Assembly: GCA_964612295.1 (NCBI GenBank)
Contig: CAZTDY010000006.1
Coordinates: forward strand, 35,546-99,545
Reading direction: 5' to 3'
Length of the DNA: 64,000 bases
Source: an uncultured bacterium
Lineage (GTDB): Bacteria > Eisenbacteria > RBG-16-71-46 > CAIMUX01 > WJJG01
Below are positions 11,233 through 51,897 of the stretch, piece after piece; positions within the stretch are counted from its first letter, which is position 1, and the number at the start of each line of letters is the position of its first letter. Both the position numbers and the translations under genes were made by a program. The notes below the pieces were generated by a model. The model saw only the letters and a list, made by a program, of their open reading frames with translations, had not been told where the DNA came from and ran no database searches.

Positions 11233-13056
11233 TCAAGGAATCTCTTCTAGCGAATATACCCTGACCTCGGGTCCGGGATGAAGGCCTTCTTTGCCGGTGA
11301 AGGTCTTCACGAGACGTCCGTAGCTGAACAGGTCCCGATAGAAAGCGGCGAAGGAGGGGAATCTCTCGGGGGTGGAGGTATTTCGGTCCATGCAGGACAA
11401 ATACGCGTAGCTGTGGACGATGGCGTAGTCGAAGCCCTGCTGAACGTAGGACTCGTACGAGTTGACCCCCACCGGCTTCAGGGGGTTGGCCATATCCTGA
11501 TCGTAGTCGGTGGTCAGCTCGTGGACACCTGACTGCTCCTCGACCCGTCGCCACCAGGGGAATCGAATCTCCACGATGTCGTAGGTGACGCCCTGTTTGG
11601 AGGCCTCGATCTGATAGTCGAGGTAGCGCTGGTAGTGGGTGGTGAACTGCCCCGAGCCGGTCGACTCCGTCGCCGCCGGGTATACGCGGTGGATCGCCGT
11701 TTCGCTCAGGTTCAACCGGGGGCCGTTTTCGCTCACGAGGAGCCGGTTCCCGGCTGGGATGTTCGCTTCGATCCACACCTTGGCCAGCTGGCGTGTGTTC
11801 GTCCGAGAGACGAAAGTCCCTCGATCGAGGATTGCCCAGGTCGGCCAGGCCAGCAAGAGCCCCAGACCCACCAACACAATGCGGCGACTCAGCTCCGAGC
11901 GCTCCCAGAGGAGTGACAGGAGGTGCCCCCCCGTCAGGGCAAGGAAGGCGTAGAAAGGTAGCTGGTGCCGGGGTTCGGCATAGCCGGGGTAGCTGACCAC
12001 GGAGAGGCCCACAAAGACGATCGGATAGACCAGGAAGATCAGCCGAGTTCGGTCCAGACGCCTGAGAAAGACGAGCAGGCCGACGAGCGAAATGACCGCA
12101 ATCGGGAGTCCCATGCCGTGCGTGGCGAACAGCTCCTGCGCATACTCCGCGAAGCCCCCGCTGATATCGGTCGGTTGCGAGATGAAGTCGCTCGGCTGCG
12201 CTGCAGGCGGTGGGCCGAAGAGCGCCGCAACCTTGTCGATCAGATGGTTGACGTTGTAGAAGGTCGCCGTCCGTCCCAGGGGATCGAGGAAGTTGTAGGG
12301 CGCGCAGACGAAGTAGGTGCCGACGAACATGAGGAACGCCGCCCCCAGCCACCGAAGCTTGCCGACGATTTTGGCCGGGGCACCGGTGCAGGCGTCCTTT
12401 CCCCGCCACACGATTGCGACGAAGATCGGTGCGAGCATTGCCATGGGGTAGTACTTCGTGGCGGCTCCCATGCCGGCTGCCGCCGAGGCCAGCAGCAGCG
12501 GTTTCACTCCGCCTCGTTCCAGGTGGCGGAAGAGGAAGAACAGGGACAGGAAGACGAAGAAGCTCGCAGGAATGTCCGCTTTGACTTCCTGGCAGATCAC
12601 CACATGGGCATAGGTCAGGGAGAGCAGGATTGCCGCAAAGGCCCCAGCCCGCTTTCCCAGGTACCGATTGCCGAACCGATAGACCAGCCAGATCGTGGCG
12701 ATTCCAAATGCCATGGAGGTCAGCCGACCGATCAAATAGAACGGCCCCGGGTTTTGCACGAAGTAGACCGCGAACTCATCGACTGAGGTCCACATTCCAC
12801 CGACGAGCCCGATCAGGAAGAAGACCCCATACTCGGCAAACAGGAGGTACATGAGAAAGGCCGGCTTATGGAACCAGTGGGGGTTCAAGTCGAACGAGCC
12901 AAAGGACAGGGCCCGCATCACGAAGTGGTTTTCGTCCCCGAAGTAGGAGAATGGATAGTCATGCCAGAATCCGAGCAGACGCAAAAGAGTGGCACCCAGA
13001 AGGGTCGCTACCAGGATCAGCGCTGAGCGCCGGAGCGTTTCGTTATCTGCTTTCAT
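11233..13056 (-). CDS. GT-C fold glycosyltransferase (GT39/ArnT/PMT-like) with C-terminal periplasmic domain
   Basis: Polytopic N-terminal half with YFGDEN (DE motif of first periplasmic loop in GT-C enzymes). 607 aa. Confidence 0.7.
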   Translation of the reverse strand: MKADNETLRRSALILVATLLGATLLRLLGFWHDYPFSYFGDENHFVMRALSFGSFDLNPHWFHKPAFLMYLLFAEYGVFFLIGLVGGMWTSVDEFAVYFVQNPGPFYLIGRLTSMAFGIATIWLVYRFGNRYLGKRAGAFAAILLSLTYAHVVICQEVKADIPASFFVFLSLFFLFRHLERGGVKPLLLASAAAGMGAATKYYPMAMLAPIFVAIVWRGKDACTGAPAKIVGKLRWLGAAFLMFVGTYFVCAPYNFLDPLGRTATFYNVNHLIDKVAALFGPPPAAQPSDFISQPTDISGGFAEYAQELFATHGMGLPIAVISLVGLLVFLRRLDRTRLIFLVYPIVFVGLSVVSYPGYAEPRHQLPFYAFLALTGGHLLSLLWERSELSRRIVLVGLGLLLAWPTWAILDRGTFVSRTNTRQLAKVWIEANIPAGNRLLVSENGPRLNLSETAIHRVYPAATESTGSGQFTTHYQRYLDYQIEASKQGVTYDIVEIRFPWWRRVEEQSGVHELTTDYDQDMANPLKPVGVNSYESYVQQGFDYAIVHSYAYLSCMDRNTSTPERFPSFAAFYRDLFSYGRLVKTFTGKEGLHPGPEVRVYSLEEIP

Positions 13057-24809: not shown

Positions 24810-25619
24810 TCAACGTCTGAGCCGCAGGCGGGCTTGGTTCCTGAGGAAGCGGCCCAGCGATTCCCGCCGGCCGAAGGGTGTGATTTGGCCCCCCGGCTCC
24901 AGCAGCAGCCGTTTCAGGCCGGCAGCTGGGCGGTGACCATCCAGCTGTCCCTCGAGCGAGAAGCCCTGGGCCCCGACTCCTCGTTCCTCCTTTTCGAGGG
25001 GGAGGGGATCGCTTCCCGGAAGCACGGCGATGCCTTGCGCGGCGGCCAGACCGAACTCCTTGGGCGTGGGGAAGAGGCCGGGACGCCCTGCGTTGTCTCC
25101 GAGGAAGACGCGAGGTGGTCCCGGCTGGGACAGAAACTCCCGCAGACAGGCGCCCCGCTTCCCGGCCCATTTGCCGAAGCCCCACGGGATCACGGCCACC
25201 CCGCCGGTCTTGTTGACCTGCGCGACCAAGTTGCGGAGTCCGATCCCGTCCGCGAACGGCTCCCTCGTGCCCAGGGCGAGGAGTTCGAGTCTCTCGGCCG
25301 TCACGATCTGGCGTCCTGCGATGAGGATGAGCTGCTCTTCCCCCGGACCAAGGGCGATGAGCGATTCGTCTTCCTCCGTCTTGTGAAACGACCAGGTTCC
25401 GTCGCTCACCACCGGGGCGGACGTGACTGCTTCCGCCTGCCGGTGAGCGGCGGCGAACCAGTCGACCCCCTGCTGCTCAGCGAGTGCGAGGACGAGGACC
25501 GGCTGCTCGTCCGGCGCGAACTCCAGGGCGGCAACCCCCAGATTTCGGTGGGCGGCTGAGAGCAGTCGCGGTACCTGAAATCGGGCATGGAGGTGGACAT
25601 GTGCGTCGACCAGAATCAT
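24810..25619 (-). CDS. hypothetical protein (possible metal-dependent hydrolase, N-terminal VDAHVHLH motif)
   Basis: Intact 269-aa ORF. Only the N-terminal D-x-H-x-H motif hints at a TatD/amidohydrolase-like fold. Confidence 0.3.
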   Translation of the reverse strand: MILVDAHVHLHARFQVPRLLSAAHRNLGVAALEFAPDEQPVLVLALAEQQGVDWFAAAHRQAEAVTSAPVVSDGTWSFHKTEEDESLIALGPGEEQLILIAGRQIVTAERLELLALGTREPFADGIGLRNLVAQVNKTGGVAVIPWGFGKWAGKRGACLREFLSQPGPPRVFLGDNAGRPGLFPTPKEFGLAAAQGIAVLPGSDPLPLEKEERGVGAQGFSLEGQLDGHRPAAGLKRLLLEPGGQITPFGRRESLGRFLRNQARLRLRR

Positions 25620-26008
25620 GGGTCGGATCTTACCCCACCCTGAGATCGGAGTCTTCGCGGACGCTCGTTGGCGGCCTCCGCAGCGGGCAGCGGGGCGTTC
25701 TCTCCGCTGAATCGGGGGCAGTTTCCAAGGGACGCCGGCTTGACGTGCACCTTATTTGCAACTGCGGTCGTGGGTTGGCTTTGCCCGGAAAACGAGGGCC
25801 GGTCGTTTCCTTTTCGCCTAGATTTGTACCGGCTGTGTTACAGTTAACCAGAATCTCATCACGGTCTCGCAGGATGGGTTGTGCCACGTGCAATCCAGGC
25901 GACACCCTCGGGAGGGTGACAGAGGTTCGATCGATGCGTTTTGAGGGCCAAGCGCACCGTTGGCGTGTGTTTGGGCGGGGAAGAGTACTTATCAATTAGG
26001 AGGCAGAC

Positions 26009-28021
26009 ATGCGGCAATGGAGGCGTCTTTGTCGCGCGGCGATGCTAGTTCTGGCAGCTGCCGCGATTCTGACGGGATTGGCGGCAGCGTCAGTTCCGCG
26101 GGCCGTGCTGGCCGAGTTGTTCACGGCGGACTGGTGACCGTACTGTCCTGACGCCGAGTGCGGACTCGTGGCGATGCTCGTGGAGTTTCCACAGCAGTTA
26201 GTACCCTGCGCACATCACACGTCCGGAGCCTATGGCTATGGTTGGAGCGGAACCCGGGCGAATCTCTACGGAGTGGGCGGCATTCCGCACGTCCAGTTTG
26301 ATGGGATTACATCGTCGGTCGGGGCAAGCAGTTGTGCCCAGACGACCAGTACCTACCGCGGCATCATCAATGGTCGCTTGGGCTCCTCCCCTGAGAGCCC
26401 TGTGTCGATCGAGGGTGTCCACAGCATTGACGGCAATACGGTCACCGTGGACGTGACCTTCACGTTGGTGGACCCCGTGACCCTGGTCAACCCCGCTTGT
26501 CATGTCGTCGTGCAAGAGAGCAACCTCGGCGGCGAGTATCATTGGGTGACCCGAGACTACCATACGGTCAACGGTGGATTGGTGAACCAGGGCGATGAGG
26601 TCACGATCAGCCAGTCGTTCACCGGCTCCTGGAATATGGAAGAGATCACCATCGCGGCCTTCTGTCAGAAGATGACGCACCCCGAAGAGGTGTATAACGC
26701 CTTTAGGGTTCCGATGGTGCAGGACTTCCAGATCGCCTACCTGCCGCCGGTGCAATCGGTTCCGGGCGGCAACGGTACGGCTGAATTCACCGGTACCCTG
26801 ACGAATGTCGGTACCGATGCGGATGTCTTCACGGTTGATCTCAACGACGGGTTCGGCTGGCCGAGCGAGTTCATGCTCGAGGGCGAGGGTGGCTTCCACA
26901 CCACGCAGTCGGTCGTTTCGCTGGGCGTCGGCGAGTCCATCGGGGTCTACCTGAATGTCACGACTGACAGCGACGTGCGTATCGGCGTCGGTGGTCTGCA
27001 GTGCCATTCGGCGAATACGGACCACACCGGCGACGTGAATGCCCGGGTCTTCAACGGCAGCCCGGCCATCATGTTCGTCGATGACGACCGCAACCGCGCG
27101 GACGAGGTCGAGCTTGAGACGGCTCTCAACAGCAGCGGTCTGCTCTATGACAGCTGGGACGTGTTCTTCGAGCACGCTGAACACAATCCCGCCTTGGTAG
27201 ACCTGGACGGCTTCGATGTCGTTCTCTGGCACCAGGGTTGGAACTGGGGTCCGCGTTTCGATGAAGACGCGATGAACACCATCGCTGCGTACATGGATGC
27301 TGGCGGCGGCTTCATCATGTCCGCGCAGCAGTTCCTGACCTACGTGACGGCGCCGAACGACTTCGTGACCGACTACCTGGGCATCTCGTCCTGGATCGAC
27401 AACGTGGGCGCCGAGTGGGCCTACGGCCAGGCAGGCGATCCGATCTCGGACGGTCTCGACTTCGAACTCGGGTACCCGTCCGGCAGTCTGAACAAGGCCG
27501 ACCATCTCGAACCCACGGCGACCGCATCGGTGGTCTTCGAGAGCGAGAATGGGGACAATGTCGGGATCCGCAACGAGACGCGCGGCATGCGCAGCGTGAC
27601 CTTCGCCTTCGGCACCAACGCCATCGTCGGTGGTGGTTCTCCCGAAGGTTTGGCCACGACGCTCTCGAACGCCGTTGGCTGGCTCGCCCAGACGAGCCAG
27701 GATGTTGACGACGTGGTTCCGGTGAACGGCCTCTCGGCCATCACCGGCATCGAGCCGAACCCGTTCAGCCTGGGCGCGGCCACGACCATCCGCCTGAACT
27801 TGTCGGAGACGGCTGCCAACGGACAGCCCACCCTGCAGCTGATGGATGTGACCGGTCGTCTGGTGCGCGATATGTCGAACCAGAACTTCCAGGTTGGCCT
27901 GCAGACGGTCACTTGGGACGGACTGGATTCGCAGGGTCGTCCGGTTGAGGCTGGGGTCTACTACCTCAACTTCAGCACGGCCGACAATTCCGGCAATGCG
28001 CGCGTGGTCGTGATCCGGTAA
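26009..28021 (+). CDS. secreted thioredoxin-fold protein, candidate selenoprotein (in-frame TGA 26135-26137 at first Cys of W-C-P-Y-C motif), with T9SS-type C-terminal sorting domain
   Basis: AGGAGG RBS 6 nt upstream of ATG 26009. Signal peptide MRQWRRLCRAAMLVLAAAAILTGLAAA. ...VLAELFTADW-TGA-PYCPDAE... in frame with the 617-aa ORF 26168-28021. Downstream cis-Pro loop GVGGIPHVQFDG. C-terminus matches T9SS CTD (VYYLNF...ARVVVIR). Confidence 0.55.
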
Positions 28022-28047: not shown

Positions 28048-28080
28048 GATGGGCAGGCCGGTTGGCCTGCCCATCTTTTT
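28048..28080 (+). terminator. rho-independent terminator
   Basis: Perfect 12-bp stem GATGGGCAGGCC/GGCCTGCCCATC with GGTT loop followed by TTTTT. Confidence 0.6.
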
Positions 28081-28110: not shown

Positions 28111-28806
28111 ATGATTGAAGGCTGTTCTCCCGGTTTCGGGCGGGTGATAATCACGTCCATGGCACCGCTTCCCTCCCCAGACACCGGCAGGCTACGTCTG
28201 ATCGGCATCGCCGATCCATCCGCCGCCGGCTGGGAGCAACTCGAACCCGCCGCCGCCCAAGCCCTCCAGGCCGGTCTCCCGGCCCTGATGCTGCGGGACC
28301 GCGGGTTGCCGGATACAGCGTTTGAGCCGATCGCGACCCGGATGCGGGCGGCGACTCGTGCGCACGGTGCTCTTCTGCTTCTCAATCGCCGTTTTGACAT
28401 CGCCCGCCGGGTCGACGCTGATGGAATCCACGTGGGGAGCGGCGGCCCGCCGATTGCCAGCCTGCGCCGTGAATGCCGTCCGGACGTCCTGATCGGCTAT
28501 TCGGCCCACGCCGGCTCGGAGGCCAGGCAGGCGTTCGAGAACGGTGCGGACTACGTCTTCTTCAGCCCGATCTTCGAAACGCCCAGCAAGCAGGGCATAC
28601 TCGAGCCGGTGGGGCTGGAGGTTCTTGGAGTGGTCGCGGAGGAGACGCCCGGGCCGGTGATTGCCCTGGGGGGGATCGATGCCGGCAATGTCGGCGCGGT
28701 GATGTCATCGGGCGCTTCGGGGGTGGCAATGATCCGGGGGATCTTCTCGCCCGAACGGGACGCCGCGCAACAGACCCGCAAGATCCTCGCCCTCGTCAGG
28801 GAATGA
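28111..28806 (+). CDS. thiE: thiamine-phosphate synthase
   Basis: LLLNRRFDIARRVDADGIHVG and FSPIFETPSK...ALGGI motifs of ThiE. Alternative start ATG 28159. Confidence 0.8.
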   Translation: MIEGCSPGFGRVIITSMAPLPSPDTGRLRLIGIADPSAAGWEQLEPAAAQALQAGLPALMLRDRGLPDTAFEPIATRMRAATRAHGALLLLNRRFDIARRVDADGIHVGSGGPPIASLRRECRPDVLIGYSAHAGSEARQAFENGADYVFFSPIFETPSKQGILEPVGLEVLGVVAEETPGPVIALGGIDAGNVGAVMSSGASGVAMIRGIFSPERDAAQQTRKILALVRE

Positions 28807-30920: not shown

Positions 30921-31787
30921 TCAGGCTTCGCCGAGTAGCACGCGCAAGATCACGTTGGCCTGGTGTCCAGCGGCCACCGCCACCCGCGGCGCCAGCAGGC
31001 CCCGGCCGGGCTTGGCCTCCGATTCCGCATCACCGATCATATAGATGTGCTCGAACACCCGGCGAATCCGGATCTCATCCGATGGCCCATAGCCCGCGAT
31101 GCCGGAAACCGTGACCAGGGGAGTCCCCGGCATTCGGCTCCGCACGGCCATCGTCATGTCACGTTTCATTGCGGGCCCATCGAAACATTCCGCCAGCGCA
31201 TCGCAACCGGAGAACACCTCTGGGATCGTCTCGCGCGTGAGTTCGGTCCTGTGCGTTTCCACGACCACGTATGGATTGATGCGCGTGAGGTTTTCAGCCA
31301 GAGCATCCACCTTGGGCCGTCCGATCTGGTCGACGAAGAACTGCTGGCGATTGAGATTGCTCGGCTCGACGACATCGAAATCGGCGAGGCGCAATCGACC
31401 CACCCCTGTTCGCGCCAGAGCGACCGCCACCAGGCTTCCCAGCCCGCCGCAGCCGGCAACGCCCACGCAGGTGTTCTTCACGCGATGATGCACACCGGGG
31501 CCGTGGCGGGCCACCATAAGACCCTCGAGCTCGGCCTCGCTGGGGATCTCACCCCGCTGGATGAAGACGATCTCATCCCCGCCGTTCAGTTCGCGATCCG
31601 TATCGACGGGAAAGCCATTGTGAATGACCACATCCGCGTCGGGCTTCATCTCATCACGGAGAGTGAGAACCCCGACACCCCGGGGTACGGTGTGCGCAAC
31701 CTCGTTGACTTTGATGTGGATGATCGCCGCAGACAAAGACGGCCTCCCCTGGTTCTGGGAAGCCGGCGAGAATGTTCGGTTTGCCAC
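30921..31787 (-). CDS. thiF: ThiF/MoeB-family adenylyltransferase with N-terminal ThiS-like beta-grasp domain
   Basis: GCGGLGSLVAVALARTGVG Rossmann motif of E1-like enzymes. N-terminal ~90 aa (IIHIKVNEVAHTVPRGV...GDEIVFIQRGEIP) resembles ThiS. The GTG at 31787 lies inside the riboswitch P1 region. TTG 31736 with GGGGAGG RBS is a more plausible start. Confidence 0.7.
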   Translation of the reverse strand: MANRTFSPASQNQGRPSLSAAIIHIKVNEVAHTVPRGVGVLTLRDEMKPDADVVIHNGFPVDTDRELNGGDEIVFIQRGEIPSEAELEGLMVARHGPGVHHRVKNTCVGVAGCGGLGSLVAVALARTGVGRLRLADFDVVEPSNLNRQQFFVDQIGRPKVDALAENLTRINPYVVVETHRTELTRETIPEVFSGCDALAECFDGPAMKRDMTMAVRSRMPGTPLVTVSGIAGYGPSDEIRIRRVFEHIYMIGDAESEAKPGRGLLAPRVAVAAGHQANVILRVLLGEA

Positions 31788-31875
31788 TCCCTACGCCGGC
31801 ATTATCCGGATCAGGTTATGGGTCAGCGGCCTACCGCTATCTCAGCCCCTTCACGGAGCTCCCCGTGGATCGACT
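31780..31875 (-). ncRNA. TPP (thiamine pyrophosphate) riboswitch
   Basis: Minus-strand RNA reads CCACGGGGAGCUCCGUGAAGGGGCUGAGAUAGCGGUAGGCCGCUGACCCAUAACCUGAUCCGGAUAAUGCCGGCGUAGGGAGUG. Contains the invariant CUGAGA and ACCUGAUCCGGAUAAUGCCGGCGUAGGGA THI-box elements. Immediately 5' of thiF. Confidence 0.8.
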
Positions 31876-32000: not shown

Positions 32001-35000
32001 CTACTGGATCACCATGACCTTCCGGGCCTCATTCACCTCGCCGGCCTTGAACCGGTAGAAGTAGATTCCCGTCCCCAGCTCGGTTGCGTTCAATGTTGCC
32101 GAGTGCGTCCCGGCGGCATACTGCCCCCGGGCCAGGATCGCGACGCGCTTGCCCGCCACGTTGAAGACATCCAGGCGCACATCTGCCGCCTCTGGCAGGT
32201 TGAAGAAGATCGTGCGCGTGCTGGGCGACCAGCTCGAGCGCACCTCCGACCCGCTGAACGCCAGGCGGCCGAGCGGGCCGTCTCGACCTTCGACGGGGCC
32301 GCTCTCGCAGGCGATCGTGACCACGTTCGCTCCCGGATCGTAGGTGTGCGTTGCGTGCGTGACGTCGGTGACCTCGAAGCACCATTCGCCCACCGGGTTG
32401 CGCACCTTGTCAGTTGTTACGGAGATCGACCCGTCCGTGCCAGTGATCCCGCTCGCGGTGCCTGCAGAGGGACCCGTGAAACTCAACGAGACGGTCGCAC
32501 CCGACAGCGGCGCGCTCGCCTGATCCACGATCCAGACCGTGCAGGTCCCCTTGTAGCCGTTGCCGACCCGCCGGCGGCCGGCCGTCATGTCATCGACATG
32601 CATCGTGTTGTTGCCGGCCTCCAGCACGGTGATGTATCCCGTCTTGGTCTCATCATCCGATCCGTAGGCGTTGGTGGCCGTCAAGGTTACCGTGTAGGTG
32701 CCGGGCGCGTCATACTGGTGGCTGGGACTCTGCGCAGAGGAGGTGCCCCCATCGCCAAACGTCCAGCTCCAGGCAGTCGGCGCGCCGCTCGAGAGATCGC
32801 TGAACTGCACGACGAGCGGCGCGTAGCCGGACGTCGGCACACCCTCGAAGTTCGCCACCGGCGGCACCGGTCCGCTGATCGACTCGATCGCCAGGTAGTC
32901 GATGTAGATGCTGTCGAGTGACTGCAGCTTTCTTGTGTGATCGCTGTCAACCACCCGGATGTACACCGTGCCGCTCACCGAAGCAGGCATGCTGACCGTA
33001 TAGAGCTGCTCGGTTGCGCTGGCAACGGTCACCAGGTCGGTGAAGCTGCTCCCATCGGTCGAGTAGGCGAAGGTGAAATCATCGCCGTCGGAGTTCGACG
33101 GACGGTAGGCCTCGACATAGAAGGTGACCGAACTTCCGCCGCCCACCGTGAAGCTCCACTGATGCTCGAGCATGCTGTACCACTTGCGCGGGTGGGTCTG
33201 TGAGGAGACCTCGGTGATCACCTCATAGCCATTGTTGCTGGTGTGGGTGTCAAGGTAGGACCCGCTGACCGTTCCAGCCACCGGGATATCCGCCTCGGCC
33301 ACCGCGACTGGCGGTGCGGGATCCACCTGAATGTAGCCGGTTCTGGTCATCGCGTCGGAGCCGCAGGCGTTCGCCACGGCCAGGGTGACCGTGTAGTCGC
33401 CTTCGCCCGTGTAGGTGTGACTCGGGTTCTGGGCCGAAGAGGTGCCGCCGTCCCCGAAGGTCCAGCTCCAACTGTCGGCGCCGGTCGAGAGGTCGGTGAA
33501 ATCAACTATGAGGGGAGCCGTTCCCGTGGTCGGCGAACCGGAGAAGTCCGCCACCGGTGCCACGCACGGATCCACCGTGATGTAGTCCGTCTTTGTTTCG
33601 GTATCCGATCCTCCGGGGCCGGTCACCGTCAGGCTGACCGTATAGGTTCCCGCCGCAGTGTATTGGTGGGATGGATTCTGCGCACTCGAAGTGCCGCCAT
33701 CCCCGAACGTCCAGCTCCACGTGTCGATGCTGCCGGTGGACAGATCCGTGAAATCGACGGTCAGCGGCTCGGTCCCCGAGGTGGGTGTGCCGGAGAAATC
33801 CGCGACCGGTGGTGGGGGAGGCCCCGTATTGACCGCGTTGTAGGAGTTGATGCGGCCCGCGCCCATCTTCCCGAGGTAGGTCGATGGGAGATAGGCGTCG
33901 ATGTCGTCGGCGCTCGTGTAGAGCTGGTCTTCGACCTGTGAGGCGCTCCAACCGGGGTTCTGCGACCAGATCAGCGCGCCCACGCCGGCCGCCATCGGGG
34001 TGGCCATGGAGGTGCCGTCCATCGAGGCCCAATAGGTCGTGTTCGGGTCGGTGTGATCGTGATAGGTCGAGTAGATGCCCACGCCGGGTGCGCTGATATC
34101 GACCCAGGTGCCGTAGGTGGTGAAGCTGGCCGGGCTGTCGTCCACATCGACCGCCGCGACCGAGATGCAGTCCCCGCGGCCGTTCAAGTAGTCGGCCGTC
34201 TGGCTGCCGTCGTTGCCCGCGGCCACGAAGATCAGGCCACCGGAGTTGAGGAAATAGGTCGCAGCTGTGCCGATCCCGCCCGAGTTGGACGAGCCCCAGC
34301 TGCAGGAGGCGATCTTGGCGCCGTTGTTCGCAGCGTAGTAGAAGGCCTCGGCGGCGGCGTCCATCATGACGACGCCGTATTCTTGACCGAGGTAGTTGTA
34401 GGAATACCCCATCCGCAGCGCCATGATCTCGACGCCGTTTCCGTATTCGGCCTGGGGTCCGTTGTTCCAACCGCCCGCGACACCGGCCATGCCGTAGCCG
34501 TCGTTGGTGATCATGCCGAAGATACCGGCGGTGTGCGTGCCGTGGCCGTTGAAGTCACGGGGGTCGTTGTCCATGTCGTTACAGTCTTCGCCGCTCCAGC
34601 AGTTGCTGACGCCGTCGATGAAGTCGTAGCCGACCCAATCGTCGGTGTATCCGTTGCCGTCGTCATCTACGCCGGAGGAGCCATTCAGCTCCGCCGTGTT
34701 GATCCACATGTTTCCGCGGGATGCACCGGGATTCGAGACCGAGGCGTTCGAGCCGCCGAAGTCGGGGTGGTAGTACCGCGTTCCCGAGTCGAGAATCGCC
34801 ACGATGACCGACGAACTCCCGGTTTGGATGTCCCACGCCTCCGGAGAGTCGATATCGTGGTCGTCCGCCTGATGGTGATAGGTCTGGTAGGGGCTGAAGT
34901 AGGTGTCATTGGGGGTCGCGCGCATCGCGTGAATGCCGATCGGTTCCACGCTCTCCACGAAGGGATGGCGCGCATAGGCCGCCATGACGTCCTCGAGGAT

Positions 35001-35353
35001 ACCCGATTCGAATCGGACCTTGTGGAATCTCGCCAGGTTGGCCTCGGCCGGGTTCAGGCTGTTCTCGGAGCCGAGGAACTGCTGGCGAATGCGGGTGACG
35101 CGATACTGGTCCGACAACGCATCGAACGCGTCGTCGCCTATCTGAGCGATCGCATCCGCGGAGTAGAACACGCCCAGCTGCCCGACGTCCGGTTGACGTC
35201 CGGTTTCAACACCAGAACGAACTCATCCGGAACGTTCCCAAGGAACGATGGGATTCCCTCCGGGCGTTCGATCTGGATGATTTGATCTGCTGCTGAGGCT
35301 GCCGTGGAGACGGCGATCAGACCACACATGATTCCGATGACGAGCTTCTTCAT
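32001..35353 (-). CDS. subtilisin-like serine protease (S8) with PKD repeats and T9SS C-terminal sorting domain, reading frame interrupted by 11-bp tandem duplication
   Basis: Catalytic triad motifs VAILDSGT, NGHGTHTAGI, GTSMATPMAAGV. Three WSWTFGDGGTSSAQ PKD repeats. CTD ...GIYFYRFKAGEVNEARKVMVIQ. Signal peptide MKKLVIGIMCGLIAVSTAASA is encoded in another frame (35138-35353). Removing one copy of GACGTCCGGTT restores a single ORF. Confidence 0.75.
35184..35205. repeat. exact 11-bp tandem duplication (GACGTCCGGTT x2) inside S8 protease gene
   Basis: Direct reading of sequence. 11 nt is not a multiple of 3, so the duplication shifts the frame between signal peptide and propeptide. Confidence 0.85.
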
Positions 35354-50398: not shown

Positions 50399-51897
50399 CT
50401 ACGCTCCTTTTGCGATCCTCGTGTCCAGAATTCGACGCACGACGCGGGCGAGAGTCCGCATCTCAATGGGTTTCTCCAGATAGTCCGCCACCCCGATCTC
50501 CAAGGCCTTCTCCCGCGGGAGAGTGCCGCTGTAGCCCGTGCAGAGAACGATTGGCGTTTCCGCCCGCACGGCCAGGAGGTGTTGGGCCAACTCATCGCCT
50601 GACATGTTCGGCATGGTCAGGTCGGCGATCACGATGTCGTAGGTCTCCGGATTGGCCTCGAACGCGGCCAGTGCTTCGCGGCTGTTGGTGTAGGTCGTGA
50701 CCTGATAGCCGAGACGAGCCAGACTCATGCTCCCAACACGGGTGATGGCCTCCTCGTCATCGATCAATAGAATGTGTTCATTACCTTGGATGTGTGCCTG
50801 GGCGCCGATTTCCGGTTCGGACTTCTCACTTTCCTCCGTCGCAAGCGGGAGATAGATGTTGAATCGGGTGCCCTCACCGATCGCGGTCTCCACGAAGACC
50901 ATCCCCCCCATCGAGGCGATGATGCTGTGGACCGTCGCCAGTCCCATCCCGGTTCCCTCACCGACCTTCTTGGTCGTGAAATAGGGTTCGAAGGCCCGGC
51001 TCTTGACGTCGTCGTTCATTCCCACGCCGGTGTCCTGGATGCTGAGCTGGACGTATTCCCCGGCGTCCAGACCGAGGAATTGCTCTGCTTCCACATCCGT
51101 GAGATGGGCGTTCCTCAGGGAGACGGTCAGTGCCCCGTATGAGTTACGCATGGCGTGGAAGGCATTCGCGCAGAGGTTCATGACAACCTGATGGATCTGG
51201 GTGGGATCGGCTTTCACCAGACCCGTGTCCTCGTCGATGTCCCGTCGCAGGTCGATCGTCGCGGGAAGGGAGTTGCGCATGAAGTCGAGTGCTTCGTTGA
51301 CGACTGTCCCCAATCCCATCGGAGCACGTTCGACCTTCCCCGGGTGGCTGAAGGCGAGGATCTGACTGACGAGACTGGTTGCTCGCTGGCCGGCGGCCTT
51401 GATCCCGTTCAGGCACTCGTGAACCGGGCTGTCGGGAGCGATGGCGTCGGCCGCCAGTTCGGTGTAGCCCAAGATGGCATACAGCATGTTGTTGAAGTCA
51501 TGGGCGATGCCCCCGGCCAACGTGCCGATGGCTTCCATCTTCTGCGACTGACGCAGCTGGGTTTCCATCTGCACCAGATCAGATACGTCGCGCATCAGGA
51601 TGACGACGTTGGTGAAGCGACCCTGCTCGTCACGCACCGGCGAAACGGTTGTGTCGGACTTGTAGTCGGAGCCATCCTTGCGTTGACCGGTCAGACGGCC
51701 TTTCCAGGTTTCGCTCCGGCCGATCGCGTTCTCGATCTCGGGCCGGCCTGTCCCTCACCCTCCTGCAGGAGATCCTTGAAATGCTTCCCCTGCACCTCCT
51801 CATGCCCGAAGCCGGTGATCCTCTCCAAGGCGGGATTGGCGTACTGAATCACCAGCTCGGCATCGGTCATGACCAAGCCTTCGTCCGACTGCCGCAT
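50399..51897 (-). CDS. hybrid sensor histidine kinase (PAS + HisKA + HATPase + receiver), frameshifted within PAS domain
   Basis: H-box GGIAHDFNNML, HATPase G-boxes, C-terminal receiver. PAS N-half (VIQYANPALERITGFGHEEVQGKHF) lies in the 51691-51897 frame and PAS C-half (ETWKGRLTGQRKDGSDY...) in the 50399 frame. Junction is in GGCCGGCC run about 51741-51750. Confidence 0.6.

What the first reader, a model, noticed from the sequence alone, without database searches (positions are those of the whole stretch)
26009..28021. Candidate selenocysteine in a secreted thioredoxin-fold T9SS cargo protein (W-U-P-Y-C)
An ORF with a strong RBS (AGGAGG) and a classic signal peptide (ATG 26009) runs 42 codons to a TGA at 26135-26137. 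It then continues in the same frame, with no other stop, into the 617-aa ORF 26168-28021. The TGA falls exactly at the first Cys of a thioredoxin-fold active site: beta-strand VLAELFTA-D-W-[TGA]-P-Y-C. Roughly 30 residues later comes the cis-Pro loop GVGGIPHVQFDG. A UxxC redox motif in a Trx fold is the most common context for bacterial selenoproteins. A hairpin with a GG-containing apical loop lies 15-37 nt downstream of the UGA (26152-26173; stem CGCCGAG/CUCGUGGCG, loop UGCGGA), at a bacterial-SECIS-like distance. The same protein carries a T9SS C-terminal sorting domain. It would therefore be a surface-displayed or secreted Sec-containing oxidoreductase, which is unusual.
Basis: partly seen in the sequence, partly recalled or inferred. 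Interest (0 to 1): 0.85.

Follow-up and report, generated by a model that had tools for sequence, protein, structure and literature searches.

The report
Selenocysteine in a secreted thioredoxin-fold protein
The in-frame TGA is very probably a genuine selenocysteine codon in a secreted, probably cell-surface redox protein, which belongs to a large gene family that gene callers routinely cut short and is a distant relative of a selenoprotein family already known from ocean metagenomes.

Summary
One gene runs 26009-28021, with TGA 26135-26137 as codon 43.

- **The TGA is conserved.** At the same codon, 38 related genes, counting this one, carry TGA and one carries TGC (Cys). None carries TAA or TAG. 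The signal peptide, the beta-strand before the TGA and the xxC after it are all conserved.
- **Cys forms exist.** 56 of 174 family representatives have Cys at that position. Another 115 are called without their N-terminus.
- **A hairpin follows the TGA.** 31 of 38 sites meet the published bacterial SECIS rules, against 15% of random TGAs in this window. The hairpin shows a compensatory pair and strong synonymous-codon bias. The window's own hairpin (26152-26173) is weak taken alone, but a 79%-identical orthologue keeps it.
- **The fold fits.** The N-terminal module matches thioredoxins by sequence and Porphyromonas gingivalis HBP35, a type IX secretion (T9SS) thioredoxin-like cargo, by structure. 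The C-terminus passes the T9SS sorting-domain model.

The kind is already known. NCBIfam NF045500 ("Omp28-related selenoprotein", the GOS_C family of 2008) matches at 72.5 bits, below its 200-bit cut-off, so this is a divergent sister group.

Not shown: selA/selB/selC/selD in this genome, and selenium in the protein.

The parts
25998..26003 (+). Ribosome-binding site AGGAGG, 5 nt upstream of the start codon
   Evidence: Read directly. A GGAGG-like motif precedes the matching upstream ATG in most orthologues.
26009..28021 (+). Complete selenoprotein gene: 670 codons with Sec (U) at codon 43, ending at TAA 28019-28021
   Evidence: A single open frame apart from one TGA. Orthologues have the same layout, with 38-42 codons before the TGA in 19 of 20 (47 in L004) and 671-689 codons in total.
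26009..26089 (+). Signal peptide, Sec-translocon type (residues 1-27): basic N-region, hydrophobic core, AAA|S cleavage-like site
   Evidence: Sequence. An equivalent segment is present in all 20 reconstructed orthologues. No signal-peptide predictor was available.
26135..26146 (+). Redox motif U-P-Y-C; TGA 26135-26137 is the proposed Sec codon
   Evidence: TGA at this codon in 38 related genes counting this one, TGC in 1, and TAA/TAG in none. The second Cys is invariant. It aligns to the CxxC of thioredoxin 1fo5.
26152..26173 (+). SECIS-like hairpin CGCC-GAGU / loop GCGG / ACUC-(GU)-GGCG; the apical loop begins 22 nt after the UGA
   Evidence: dG = -8.9 kcal/mol and it meets the four published bacterial SECIS constraints. 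The 79%-identical orthologue L038 has a perfect 9-bp stem with the same loop, built from different lower-stem bases. It is weak alone: z = +0.61 and a 10-15% background rate.
26090..26383 (+). Thioredoxin-like domain (about residues 28-125), with invariant U43, C46, C51, cis-Pro P93 and C109
   Evidence: Profile match to PDB thioredoxins 1fo5 (E = 1.3e-9) and 1nho (E = 4.6e-8). The model of Cys homologue P0029 has the element order beta-alpha-beta-alpha-beta-beta-alpha.
26396..26713 (+). Omp28-like beta-sandwich (about residues 130-235). Together with the thioredoxin-like domain it forms an HBP35-like module.
26726..27043 (+). All-beta Ig-like sandwich domain (about residues 240-345)
   Evidence: Secondary structure and confidence of the AlphaFold2 model. 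Foldseek matches are to Ig-like repeats only.
27056..27688 (+). Alpha/beta domain with the class I glutamine-amidotransferase / ThuA-like fold (about residues 350-560). It has an invariant VDDD motif but no conserved Cys or His.
27755..28018 (+). C-terminal T9SS type A sorting domain (residues 583-670)
   Evidence: TIGR04183 scores 26 bits against a cut-off of 23. Pfam FlgD_ig scores 38.1 bits against a cut-off of 27, while Pfam Por_Secre_tail reaches only 13.9 bits.
28049..28080 (+). Terminator-like hairpin (11-bp stem, loop GGTT) followed by CTTTTT
   Evidence: Read directly. The consensus scan did not list it.

Best explanation
Positions 26009-28021 form one gene for a 670-residue selenoprotein.

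**How the TGA is read (inferred from comparison).** UGA at codon 43 is read as selenocysteine. A short hairpin inside the coding sequence, whose apical loop starts about 20-22 nt after the UGA, recruits SelB carrying Sec-tRNA(Sec) to the ribosome.

**What the protein is (shown by sequence and predicted fold).** Its parts, in order, are:
- a signal peptide;
- a thioredoxin-like domain with the active site U-P-Y-C;
- an Omp28-like beta-sandwich, which together with the thioredoxin-like domain resembles HBP35;
- an Ig-like domain;
- a glutamine-amidotransferase-like alpha/beta domain without a catalytic triad;
- a T9SS sorting domain.

**What it does (inferred, not shown).** The protein crosses the inner membrane by the Sec translocon. 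The type IX system then delivers it to the cell surface or the medium. There the selenol/thiol pair acts as a thiol-disulfide oxidoreductase on extracellular substrates, with selenium giving a more reactive nucleophile that resists over-oxidation. The substrate is unknown.
For: 1. **Conserved TGA.** Across proteins only 30-80% identical, 38 gene copies (counting this one) have TGA at this codon. One, L002 position 10681, has TGC and lies next to a TGA paralogue. None has TAA or TAG. By contrast, the next stops upstream in the same frame are mixed (9 TGA, 6 TAA, 5 TAG). Among 15 likely genes of the window, only 4 end in TGA.
2. **Coding on both sides.** A GGAGG-like RBS precedes most of the starts, and the ATG, signal peptide, beta-strand and xxC motif are conserved across the stop.
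3. **Sec/Cys pairs.** 56 of 174 family representatives have Cys at the column, 115 are called without it, and none of those 115 has a signal-peptide-like start.
4. **Hairpin.**
   - The core stem pairs in 85% of cells.
   - One pair switches C-G to G-C in 9 sequences, and 0 of 500 shuffles reach the observed score.
   - Synonymous codons at the stem are strongly biased relative to the same genes: GGG 14/16 against 18.5% background (P = 4e-9); CGG 16/18 against 31% (P = 7e-7).
   - 31 of 38 sites meet the published SECIS constraints, against 37 of 250 random TGAs.
   - L038 keeps the window's hairpin using different bases.
5. **Fold.**
6. **Known relative.** NCBIfam 'Omp28-related selenoprotein' matches at E = 4e-20.
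7. **Sec use in a related genome.** The genome of locus L017 encodes a second, unrelated curated selenoprotein with an in-frame TGA about 2 kb from the L017 family gene: NF053656, 214 bits against a cut-off of 100.
Against: - No selA, selB, selD or tRNA-Sec was found in the window, in 10 kb extensions on each side of it, or in about 730 kb of related loci. The rest of the genome could not be read.
- The window's own hairpin is no more stable than shuffled sequence. No Rfam family matches it.
- The hairpin overlaps the conserved peptide A-R-C-G-L, so part of its conservation could be protein-level. The one Cys paralogue also forms a hairpin there.
- Individual hairpin z-scores are modest, from -1.7 to +0.6.
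- There is no experimental evidence of selenium incorporation, of secretion, or of enzyme activity.
- T9SS machinery genes were not looked for.
Confidence: 0.85

Rival explanations
1. There are two separate genes. A 42-codon upstream ORF ends at the TGA, and a 617-residue protein starts at GTG 26168 or ATG 26174, as automatic gene callers annotate it.
For: Public gene calls for this protein and for 115 of 174 relatives start downstream of the TGA.
Against: - The downstream product would lack a signal peptide although it carries a T9SS sorting domain.
- It would also lack the first strand and active site of its thioredoxin fold.
- Cys-containing relatives are continuous through this point.
- No GGAGG-like site precedes 26168 or 26174.
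- A stop that merely ended a short ORF would not be TGA in every one of 38 genes.
Confidence: 0.04
2. The UGA is read through, but another amino acid is inserted (Trp, Cys or Gly by near-cognate or suppressor decoding) rather than selenocysteine.
For: Sec-insertion machinery was not seen in any sequence available here.
Against: - The site is the nucleophilic position of a UxxC/CxxC redox motif where relatives have Cys.
- A hairpin with a G-first apical loop sits at SECIS distance and shows covariation and codon bias.
- The closest curated family is a selenoprotein.
- TGA is an ordinary stop elsewhere in the window.
- A related genome carries a second curated selenoprotein gene.
Confidence: 0.07
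3. The gene is a pseudogene, or the TGA is a sequencing or assembly error for TGC/TGT.
For: A single in-frame stop in one metagenome contig is by itself compatible with an error.
Against: The same TGA is present in 37 other genes from independent assemblies, including the 79%-identical syntenic orthologue. The protein with this sequence was seen on 10 contigs. The rest of the frame is intact.
Confidence: 0.01

Closest known systems
Hypothetical protein GOS_C (Zhang & Gladyshev 2008, PMC2398784), now NCBIfam NF045500 'Omp28-related selenoprotein'
   Same: Both have a thioredoxin-like fold, a UxxC motif with a single Sec, many Cys homologues and a SECIS-like hairpin just after the UGA. The model matches residues 30-234 here at E = 4e-20.
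   Different: The score is 72.5 bits against a curated cut-off of 200, and no relative tested reached more than 85 bits. This is therefore a separate subfamily. It also carries extra Ig-like and amidotransferase-like domains and a T9SS sorting domain, comes from Eisenbacteria-type metagenome genomes rather than the ocean survey, and occurs in tandem arrays.
HBP35, the 35 kDa hemin-binding protein of Porphyromonas gingivalis (PDB 5y1a)
   Different: HBP35 has Cys, not Sec. Sequence identity is only 12-14%. It has no amidotransferase-like domain. Hemin binding was not tested here.
Small archaeal thioredoxin/glutaredoxin-like proteins (MJ0307 family, PDB 1fo5 and 1nho)
   Same: These are the best sequence-level match of the N-terminal profile (E = 1.3e-9). 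The active-site CxxC aligns to U-x-x-C, and the cis-Pro is aligned too.
   Different: They are cytoplasmic 85-residue single-domain proteins that contain Cys and have no secretion signals.
Escherichia coli fdhF-type bacterial SECIS element, and the general bacterial SECIS model
   Same: It is a hairpin within the coding sequence directly after the UGA. The apical loop is small and starts with G followed by U, and the spacing from the UGA is 20-22 nt, within the 16-37 nt of the model. From my own knowledge, the SelB-contacting G23/U24 of fdhF fall within one nucleotide of G24/U25 here.
   Different: There is no sequence similarity and no Rfam match. The stem is short, and the window's subclade uses a GCGG loop in a shifted register.

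Membership tests
Bacterial selenoprotein gene (UGA recoded as Sec) | An in-frame UGA conserved among homologues, with protein-coding conservation on both sides | tested here: met
   38 genes (counting this one) have TGA at the same codon. The signal peptide and strand upstream, and xxC and the rest of the protein downstream, are conserved.
Bacterial selenoprotein gene (UGA recoded as Sec) | Homologues with Cys aligned to the UGA | tested here: met
   TGC is present in the adjacent paralogue at L002 position 10681. 56 representatives have Cys at the column, including P0033 with the same architecture.
Bacterial selenoprotein gene (UGA recoded as Sec) | A SECIS hairpin after the UGA: 3-9 nt loop with G in its first two positions, upper stem of at least 4 bp, spacing 16-37 nt, dG of -7.5 kcal/mol or lower | tested here: met
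   The window's hairpin has loop GCGG, a 4-bp upper stem, spacing 22 nt and dG = -8.9 kcal/mol. 31 of 38 family sites pass, against 14.8% of random TGAs. Covariation and codon bias support it. The window's hairpin alone is weak evidence.
Bacterial selenoprotein gene (UGA recoded as Sec) | selA, selB, selC (tRNA-Sec) and selD in the same genome | not testable with these tools
   None was found in the 64 kb window, in about 20 kb of flanking contig, or in about 730 kb of related loci. Whole genomes could not be fetched. The only indirect support is a second curated selenoprotein gene in the genome of L017.
Bacterial selenoprotein gene (UGA recoded as Sec) | Selenium demonstrated in the protein | not testable with these tools
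   This requires 75Se labelling or mass spectrometry.
NCBIfam NF045500, Omp28-related selenoprotein (GOS_C) | A score at or above the curated cut-off of 200 bits | tested here: not met
   The score is 72.5 bits over residues 30-234. Eight relatives scored 28-85 bits. The protein is homologous but outside the curated family.
NCBIfam NF045500, Omp28-related selenoprotein (GOS_C) | A thioredoxin-like fold with a UxxC motif containing the Sec | tested here: met
   The motif is U-P-Y-C. The fold is supported. The family description comes from PMC13188914 and PMC2398784.
Thioredoxin fold | A beta-alpha-beta-alpha-beta-beta-alpha core, with CxxC at the start of helix 1 and a cis-Pro before strand 3 | tested here: met
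   The element order is seen in the P0029 model. PDB thioredoxins match at E = 1.3e-9 with both motifs aligned. The Pro is present in 170 of 170 family members that cover the column.
HBP35 / Omp28-like module | A thioredoxin-like domain packed against an Omp28-type beta-sandwich | tested here: met
T9SS cargo protein | A C-terminal type A sorting domain | tested here: met
   TIGR04183 scores 26 bits against a cut-off of 23. Pfam PF18962 is below its cut-off at 13.9 against 27, while PF13860 scores 38.1 against 27.
T9SS cargo protein | An N-terminal signal peptide for Sec-translocon export | tested here: inconclusive
   A typical basic, hydrophobic, AxA-type segment is visible and conserved. No dedicated predictor was available.
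T9SS cargo protein | T9SS machinery genes in the genome | not tested
   Only other proteins with sorting domains were seen nearby, for example the S8 peptidase at 32001-35171.
Class I glutamine amidotransferase / ThuA-like | The fold | tested here: met
Class I glutamine amidotransferase / ThuA-like | A catalytic Cys-His-Glu triad | tested here: not met
   The 16-sequence alignment has no invariant Cys or His in this region. The invariant residues are mostly Asp, Gly, Trp and Pro.

The most novel reading that the evidence does not exclude
This is a large, mostly unrecognised clade of T9SS-exported, surface-displayed selenoproteins. It is centred on Eisenbacteria-type bacteria. Sec forms outnumber Cys forms, and the genes are amplified into tandem arrays of up to five Sec-containing paralogues. 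If so, these organisms invest selenium in extracellular redox chemistry on a substrate that is still unknown.
Probability: 0.6. Interest if true: 0.6.

Novelty: new variant of a known kind. Interest (0 to 1): 0.5.

Why it matters
**Annotation.** About two thirds of the family representatives sampled (115 of 174) are stored in public databases without their signal peptide and active site, because gene callers stop at the UGA. Any functional or localisation prediction made from those entries is wrong.

**Biology.** Known bacterial selenoproteins are mostly cytoplasmic or periplasmic. A family that combines a Sec active site with a type IX secretion signal, expanded in tandem arrays, points to selenium-dependent redox chemistry at or beyond the cell surface, in a poorly known uncultured phylum. 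It also supplies dozens of natural UGA-plus-hairpin variants and an adjacent Sec/Cys paralogue pair. These could be used to test what a minimal bacterial SECIS needs.

Tried and rejected
- **Rfam.** Gathering thresholds on the window and permissive thresholds on 26100-26230 gave no SECIS family.
- **RNAalifold.** It predicted no consensus structure on the 20-sequence alignment. The hairpin had to be specified and counted by hand.
- **Pfam.** It found no thioredoxin domain. NCBIfam and a PDB profile search were needed.
- **N-terminal profile search.** The word-indexed database returned only 2 proteins. The exhaustive search was far more informative.
- **Structure prediction.** I therefore modelled the part after the TGA, plus a Cys homologue.
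- **Foldseek on the whole model.** It returned only Ig-repeat matches with low TM-scores.
- **Other selenoprotein genes in the window.**
  - A codon-usage scan was not discriminating.
  - A GC3-plus-motif scan gave one candidate, CPV-TGA at 51140. It is antisense to a histidine kinase gene and was rejected.
- **Sec machinery.** tblastn with E. coli SelA, SelB and SelD found nothing.
- **Gene neighbourhood.** Synteny holds only with the closest orthologue, so neighbours give no functional clue.
- **Literature.** Searches for Omp28 + selenoprotein, Eisenbacteria + selenocysteine and Eisenbacteria + T9SS found nothing. Selenoprotein + type IX secretion found one unrelated paper.
- **Contig look-ups.** Two window proteins were not on record.
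Full report
**Observation.**
- AGGAGG (25998-26003) lies 5 nt before ATG 26009.
- 42 codons then encode MRQWRRLCRAAMLVLAAAAILTGLAAASVPRAVLAELFTADW.
- TGA follows at 26135-26137, and the same frame continues without a further stop to TAA 28019-28021.
- The window contains no tRNA gene. Its only Rfam match is a TPP riboswitch elsewhere.

**The public gene calls gave the first clue.** A homology search with the full protein (U written as C) found 24 full-length relatives, several labelled Candidatus Eisenbacteria. All of them were called with a start just downstream of the position of the TGA, for example MLEEFPQQLV. None had a signal peptide or the CxxC motif.

I fetched the DNA of relatives from one genome per species and read upstream in frame. 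In 19 loci the frame continues through a stop at exactly the same codon into a conserved strand, consensus VPKVVxAEEFGAxW. Before that lie a signal peptide and an ATG, 38-42 codons ahead of the stop in all but one locus (47 in L004). A GGAGG-like site precedes most of these ATGs.

- The stop is TGA in all 20 sequences. The next stops upstream in the same frame are mixed: 9 TGA, 6 TAA, 5 TAG.
- The 79%-identical syntenic orthologue (L038) also has TGA.
- A motif scan of the same loci found further paralogues, often in tandem. L003 holds five, and L004 and L010 three each.
- The total is 38 genes with TGA (counting this one), one with TGC, and none with TAA or TAG.
- The TGC copy (L002, position 10681) lies directly beside a TGA copy (L002, position 8495).
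- TGA is an ordinary terminator in this window. Of 15 likely genes, 4 end in TGA, 6 in TAA and 5 in TAG. A reassigned genetic code is therefore excluded.

**Sec/Cys pairs in the wider family.** An exhaustive profile-free search with the 191 residues after the TGA found 310 cluster representatives at E <= 0.001.
- 115 lack the Sec column because their gene call starts after it.
  - 68 of these start within 15 positions after the column.
  - None has a signal-peptide-like start.
- 56 have Cys at the column, and one each has Ala, Ser or Trp.
- The second Cys of the motif is present in 61 of 61 that cover it, and the Pro in 170 of 170.
- The truncated calls fall mainly into two length classes, about 300 and about 620 residues. 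DNA from both classes shows the TGA.
- P0033 is a Cys form with the same 678-residue architecture.
- Two further Cys residues, C51 and C109, are invariant in the 20 reconstructed Sec forms. They are rare in distant Cys forms. I infer a structural disulfide between them, but I could not measure it.

**The hairpin.** I aligned the sequences from the TGA onward, without gaps.
- Most show GCCCG-GUG-CGGGC at columns 19-31, counting the U of UGA as column 1.
- On 38 sequences the five pairs form in 85% of cells.
- Pair 21-29 is C-G in 26 sequences and G-C in 9. No shuffle out of 500 reaches the observed covariation score, and slid registers pair far less well.

The stem overlaps the conserved peptide A-R-C-G-L, so I also tested synonymous codon choice against the same genes.

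| Amino acid | Codon | At the stem site | Background in the same genes | P |
|---|---|---|---|---|
| Gly | GGG | 14 of 16 | 18.5% | 4e-9 |
| Arg | CGG | 16 of 18 | 31% | 7e-7 |
| Ala | GCC | 15 of 18 | 44% | 7e-4 |

- Two distant paralogues in L022 have lost the Cys codon at the loop, yet still form a hairpin there from different bases.
- The published bacterial SECIS model asks for a loop of 3-9 nt with G in its first two positions, an upper stem of at least 4 bp, spacing of 16-37 nt, and dG of -7.5 kcal/mol or lower (PMC13188914).
  - 31 of 38 family sites meet it.
  - 37 of 250 random TGAs in this window meet it.

**The window's own hairpin.**
- The hairpin at 26152-26173 (CGCC-GAGU, loop GCGG, ACUC-(GU)-GGCG; dG = -8.9 kcal/mol; spacing 22 nt) passes the model.
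- It is no more stable than shuffled sequence (z = +0.61).
- It lies in a register different from that of the main clade.
- Its support is comparative. L038 has a perfect 9-bp stem, AUGCCGAGU-GCGG-ACUCGGCAU. The loop and upper stem are the same, and the lower stem is kept through different nucleotides and different amino acids. L001 shares that lower-stem register, with a C-G to G-C swap.
- An alternative fold of the window sequence places AGUG in the loop, in nearly the main-clade register. I cannot decide between the two folds.
- The single Cys paralogue also forms a stem, but with Arg codon CGC in place of CGG. This is suggestive, but it is one data point.

**What the protein is.**
- Pfam finds only the C-terminal FlgD_ig-type domain.
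- NCBIfam gives three relevant matches:
  - TIGR04183, the T9SS type A sorting domain, above its cut-off (26 bits against 23);
  - NF045500, 'Omp28-related selenoprotein', at 72.5 bits over residues 30-234, below its cut-off of 200;
  - weak matches to Omp28 lipoprotein and to MJ0307 thioredoxin.
- The N-terminal profile matches solved thioredoxins (1fo5 E = 1.3e-9, 1nho E = 4.6e-8), with U-x-x-C on their CxxC and the invariant Pro on their cis-Pro. It also matches HBP35 of Porphyromonas gingivalis (5y1a, E = 2.4e-5).
I therefore modelled residues 44-670 of the window protein (mean pLDDT 87.3) and the 251-residue Cys homologue P0029 (mean pLDDT 80.4).

The resulting layout is:

| Residues | Part |
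|---|---|
| 1-27 | signal peptide |
| 28 to about 125 | thioredoxin-like domain |
| about 130-235 | Omp28-like sandwich |
| about 240-345 | Ig-like sandwich |
| about 350-560 | amidotransferase-like domain, no conserved Cys or His |
| about 563-573 | low-confidence linker |
| 583-670 | T9SS sorting domain |

**Context.**
- The window is part of JGI 3300007511 contig Ga0105000_1000162, which is 123,843 bp long.
- The neighbours are a carbamoyltransferase, an uncharacterised 269-residue protein, and a thiamine operon with its riboswitch. They are unrelated to the gene and are syntenic only with the closest orthologue.
- A terminator-like hairpin follows the gene at 28049-28080.
- Sec-insertion genes and tRNA-Sec were not found in the window, in 10 kb on each side, or in about 730 kb of related loci. 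That is a small sample of each genome, so absence here says little.
- One indirect sign exists. In L017, about 2 kb from the L017 family gene, a lipoprotein-like ORF with an in-frame TGA in the motif T-U-S-Y-C-R scores 214 bits on NCBIfam NF053656, 'TUGYCR motif thioredoxin fold (seleno)protein' (cut-off 100). That genome therefore carries a second, independently curated selenoprotein family.

**Mechanism.**
- *Shown by comparison:* the UGA, the coding sequence around it and a hairpin after it are all under selection, and Cys replaces the UGA in relatives.
- *Inferred:* SelB with Sec-tRNA(Sec) decodes the UGA. The protein is exported by the Sec translocon and then by the type IX system. The selenol/thiol pair carries out thiol-disulfide exchange outside the cell.
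- *Closest characterised analogue:* HBP35, a T9SS cargo with measured thioredoxin activity (PMC2907840, PMC3120885).
- *Unknown:* the substrate and the role of the amidotransferase-like domain.

**Comparison with what is known.**
- NF045500 corresponds to 'hypothetical protein GOS_C', described in 2008. It has a thioredoxin-like fold and a UxxC motif, with 74 Sec forms and 312 Cys forms in the ocean survey. Its function is unknown (PMC2398784 and PMC13188914).
- The present protein is homologous to that family but fails its curated cut-off, as do all eight relatives I tested.
- It also differs in architecture, lineage and gene amplification.
- I found no paper linking selenoproteins to type IX secretion or to Eisenbacteria. 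The 2026 review does not mention secretion.

**Verdict.**
- It is a divergent variant of a known selenoprotein kind, not a new kind.
- Confidence that this is one gene with a recoded UGA is about 0.85.
- Confidence in the extracellular oxidoreductase role is roughly 0.5.
- Interest is moderate at 0.5. The Sec site itself is not surprising to a specialist. The scale of the family, its systematic mis-annotation, the tandem Sec paralogues and the type IX export signal are worth recording.

Noticed in passing
L003:3171-15726 (also L004, L010, L007, L013-L016): Family genes occur in tandem arrays, each with its own in-frame TGA. L003 holds five within about 13 kb: four of about 635 residues and one of about 300.
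   Followed up: partly
L002:8495 and L002:10681: A Sec (TGA) paralogue and a Cys (TGC) paralogue lie side by side in one genome. The Cys copy keeps a stem after the codon but uses Arg codon CGC instead of the CGG seen in almost all Sec copies.
   Followed up: partly
L017:11884-12432 (- strand), TGA at 12219: This is a second, unrelated selenoprotein gene: a lipoprotein-like redoxin with the motif T-U-S-Y-C-R. It scores 214 bits on NCBIfam NF053656 against a cut-off of 100.
   Followed up: yes
P0047 and P0121 (family representatives): Two relatives have Ala or Ser instead of Sec/Cys at the active-site column, while keeping the second Cys, C51 and C109. They may be inactive or altered variants. 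Their DNA was not examined.
   Followed up: no
window 31771-31874 (- strand): A TPP riboswitch (Rfam RF00059, 69.5 bits) lies upstream of a thiamine operon on the minus strand, made up of ThiF-like, ThiS, ThiG and ThiH genes, which are annotated in syntenic L038. thiE lies at 28111-28806 on the plus strand.
   Followed up: partly
window 32001-35171 (- strand): This gene encodes a 1056-residue subtilase (S8 peptidase) with three PKD domains and a T9SS-type C-terminal tail. It is one of several predicted T9SS cargo genes on this contig.
   Followed up: no
L027, L028, L030, L032, L033, L035-L037: In other phyla (KSB1, Calditrichota and others) the amidotransferase-like domain plus sorting domain lies a short distance downstream of an S8 peptidase domain on the same strand, possibly in one gene, instead of following the thioredoxin-like module.
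   Followed up: no
window 24810-25619 (- strand): A divergently oriented 269-residue ORF next to the gene has no Pfam match. It is conserved at 64% identity only in the closest orthologous locus.
   Followed up: partly
window 28049-28080: A strong terminator-like hairpin (11-bp stem, then CTTTTT) lies just after the gene. It was not reported by the consensus terminator scan.
   Followed up: no
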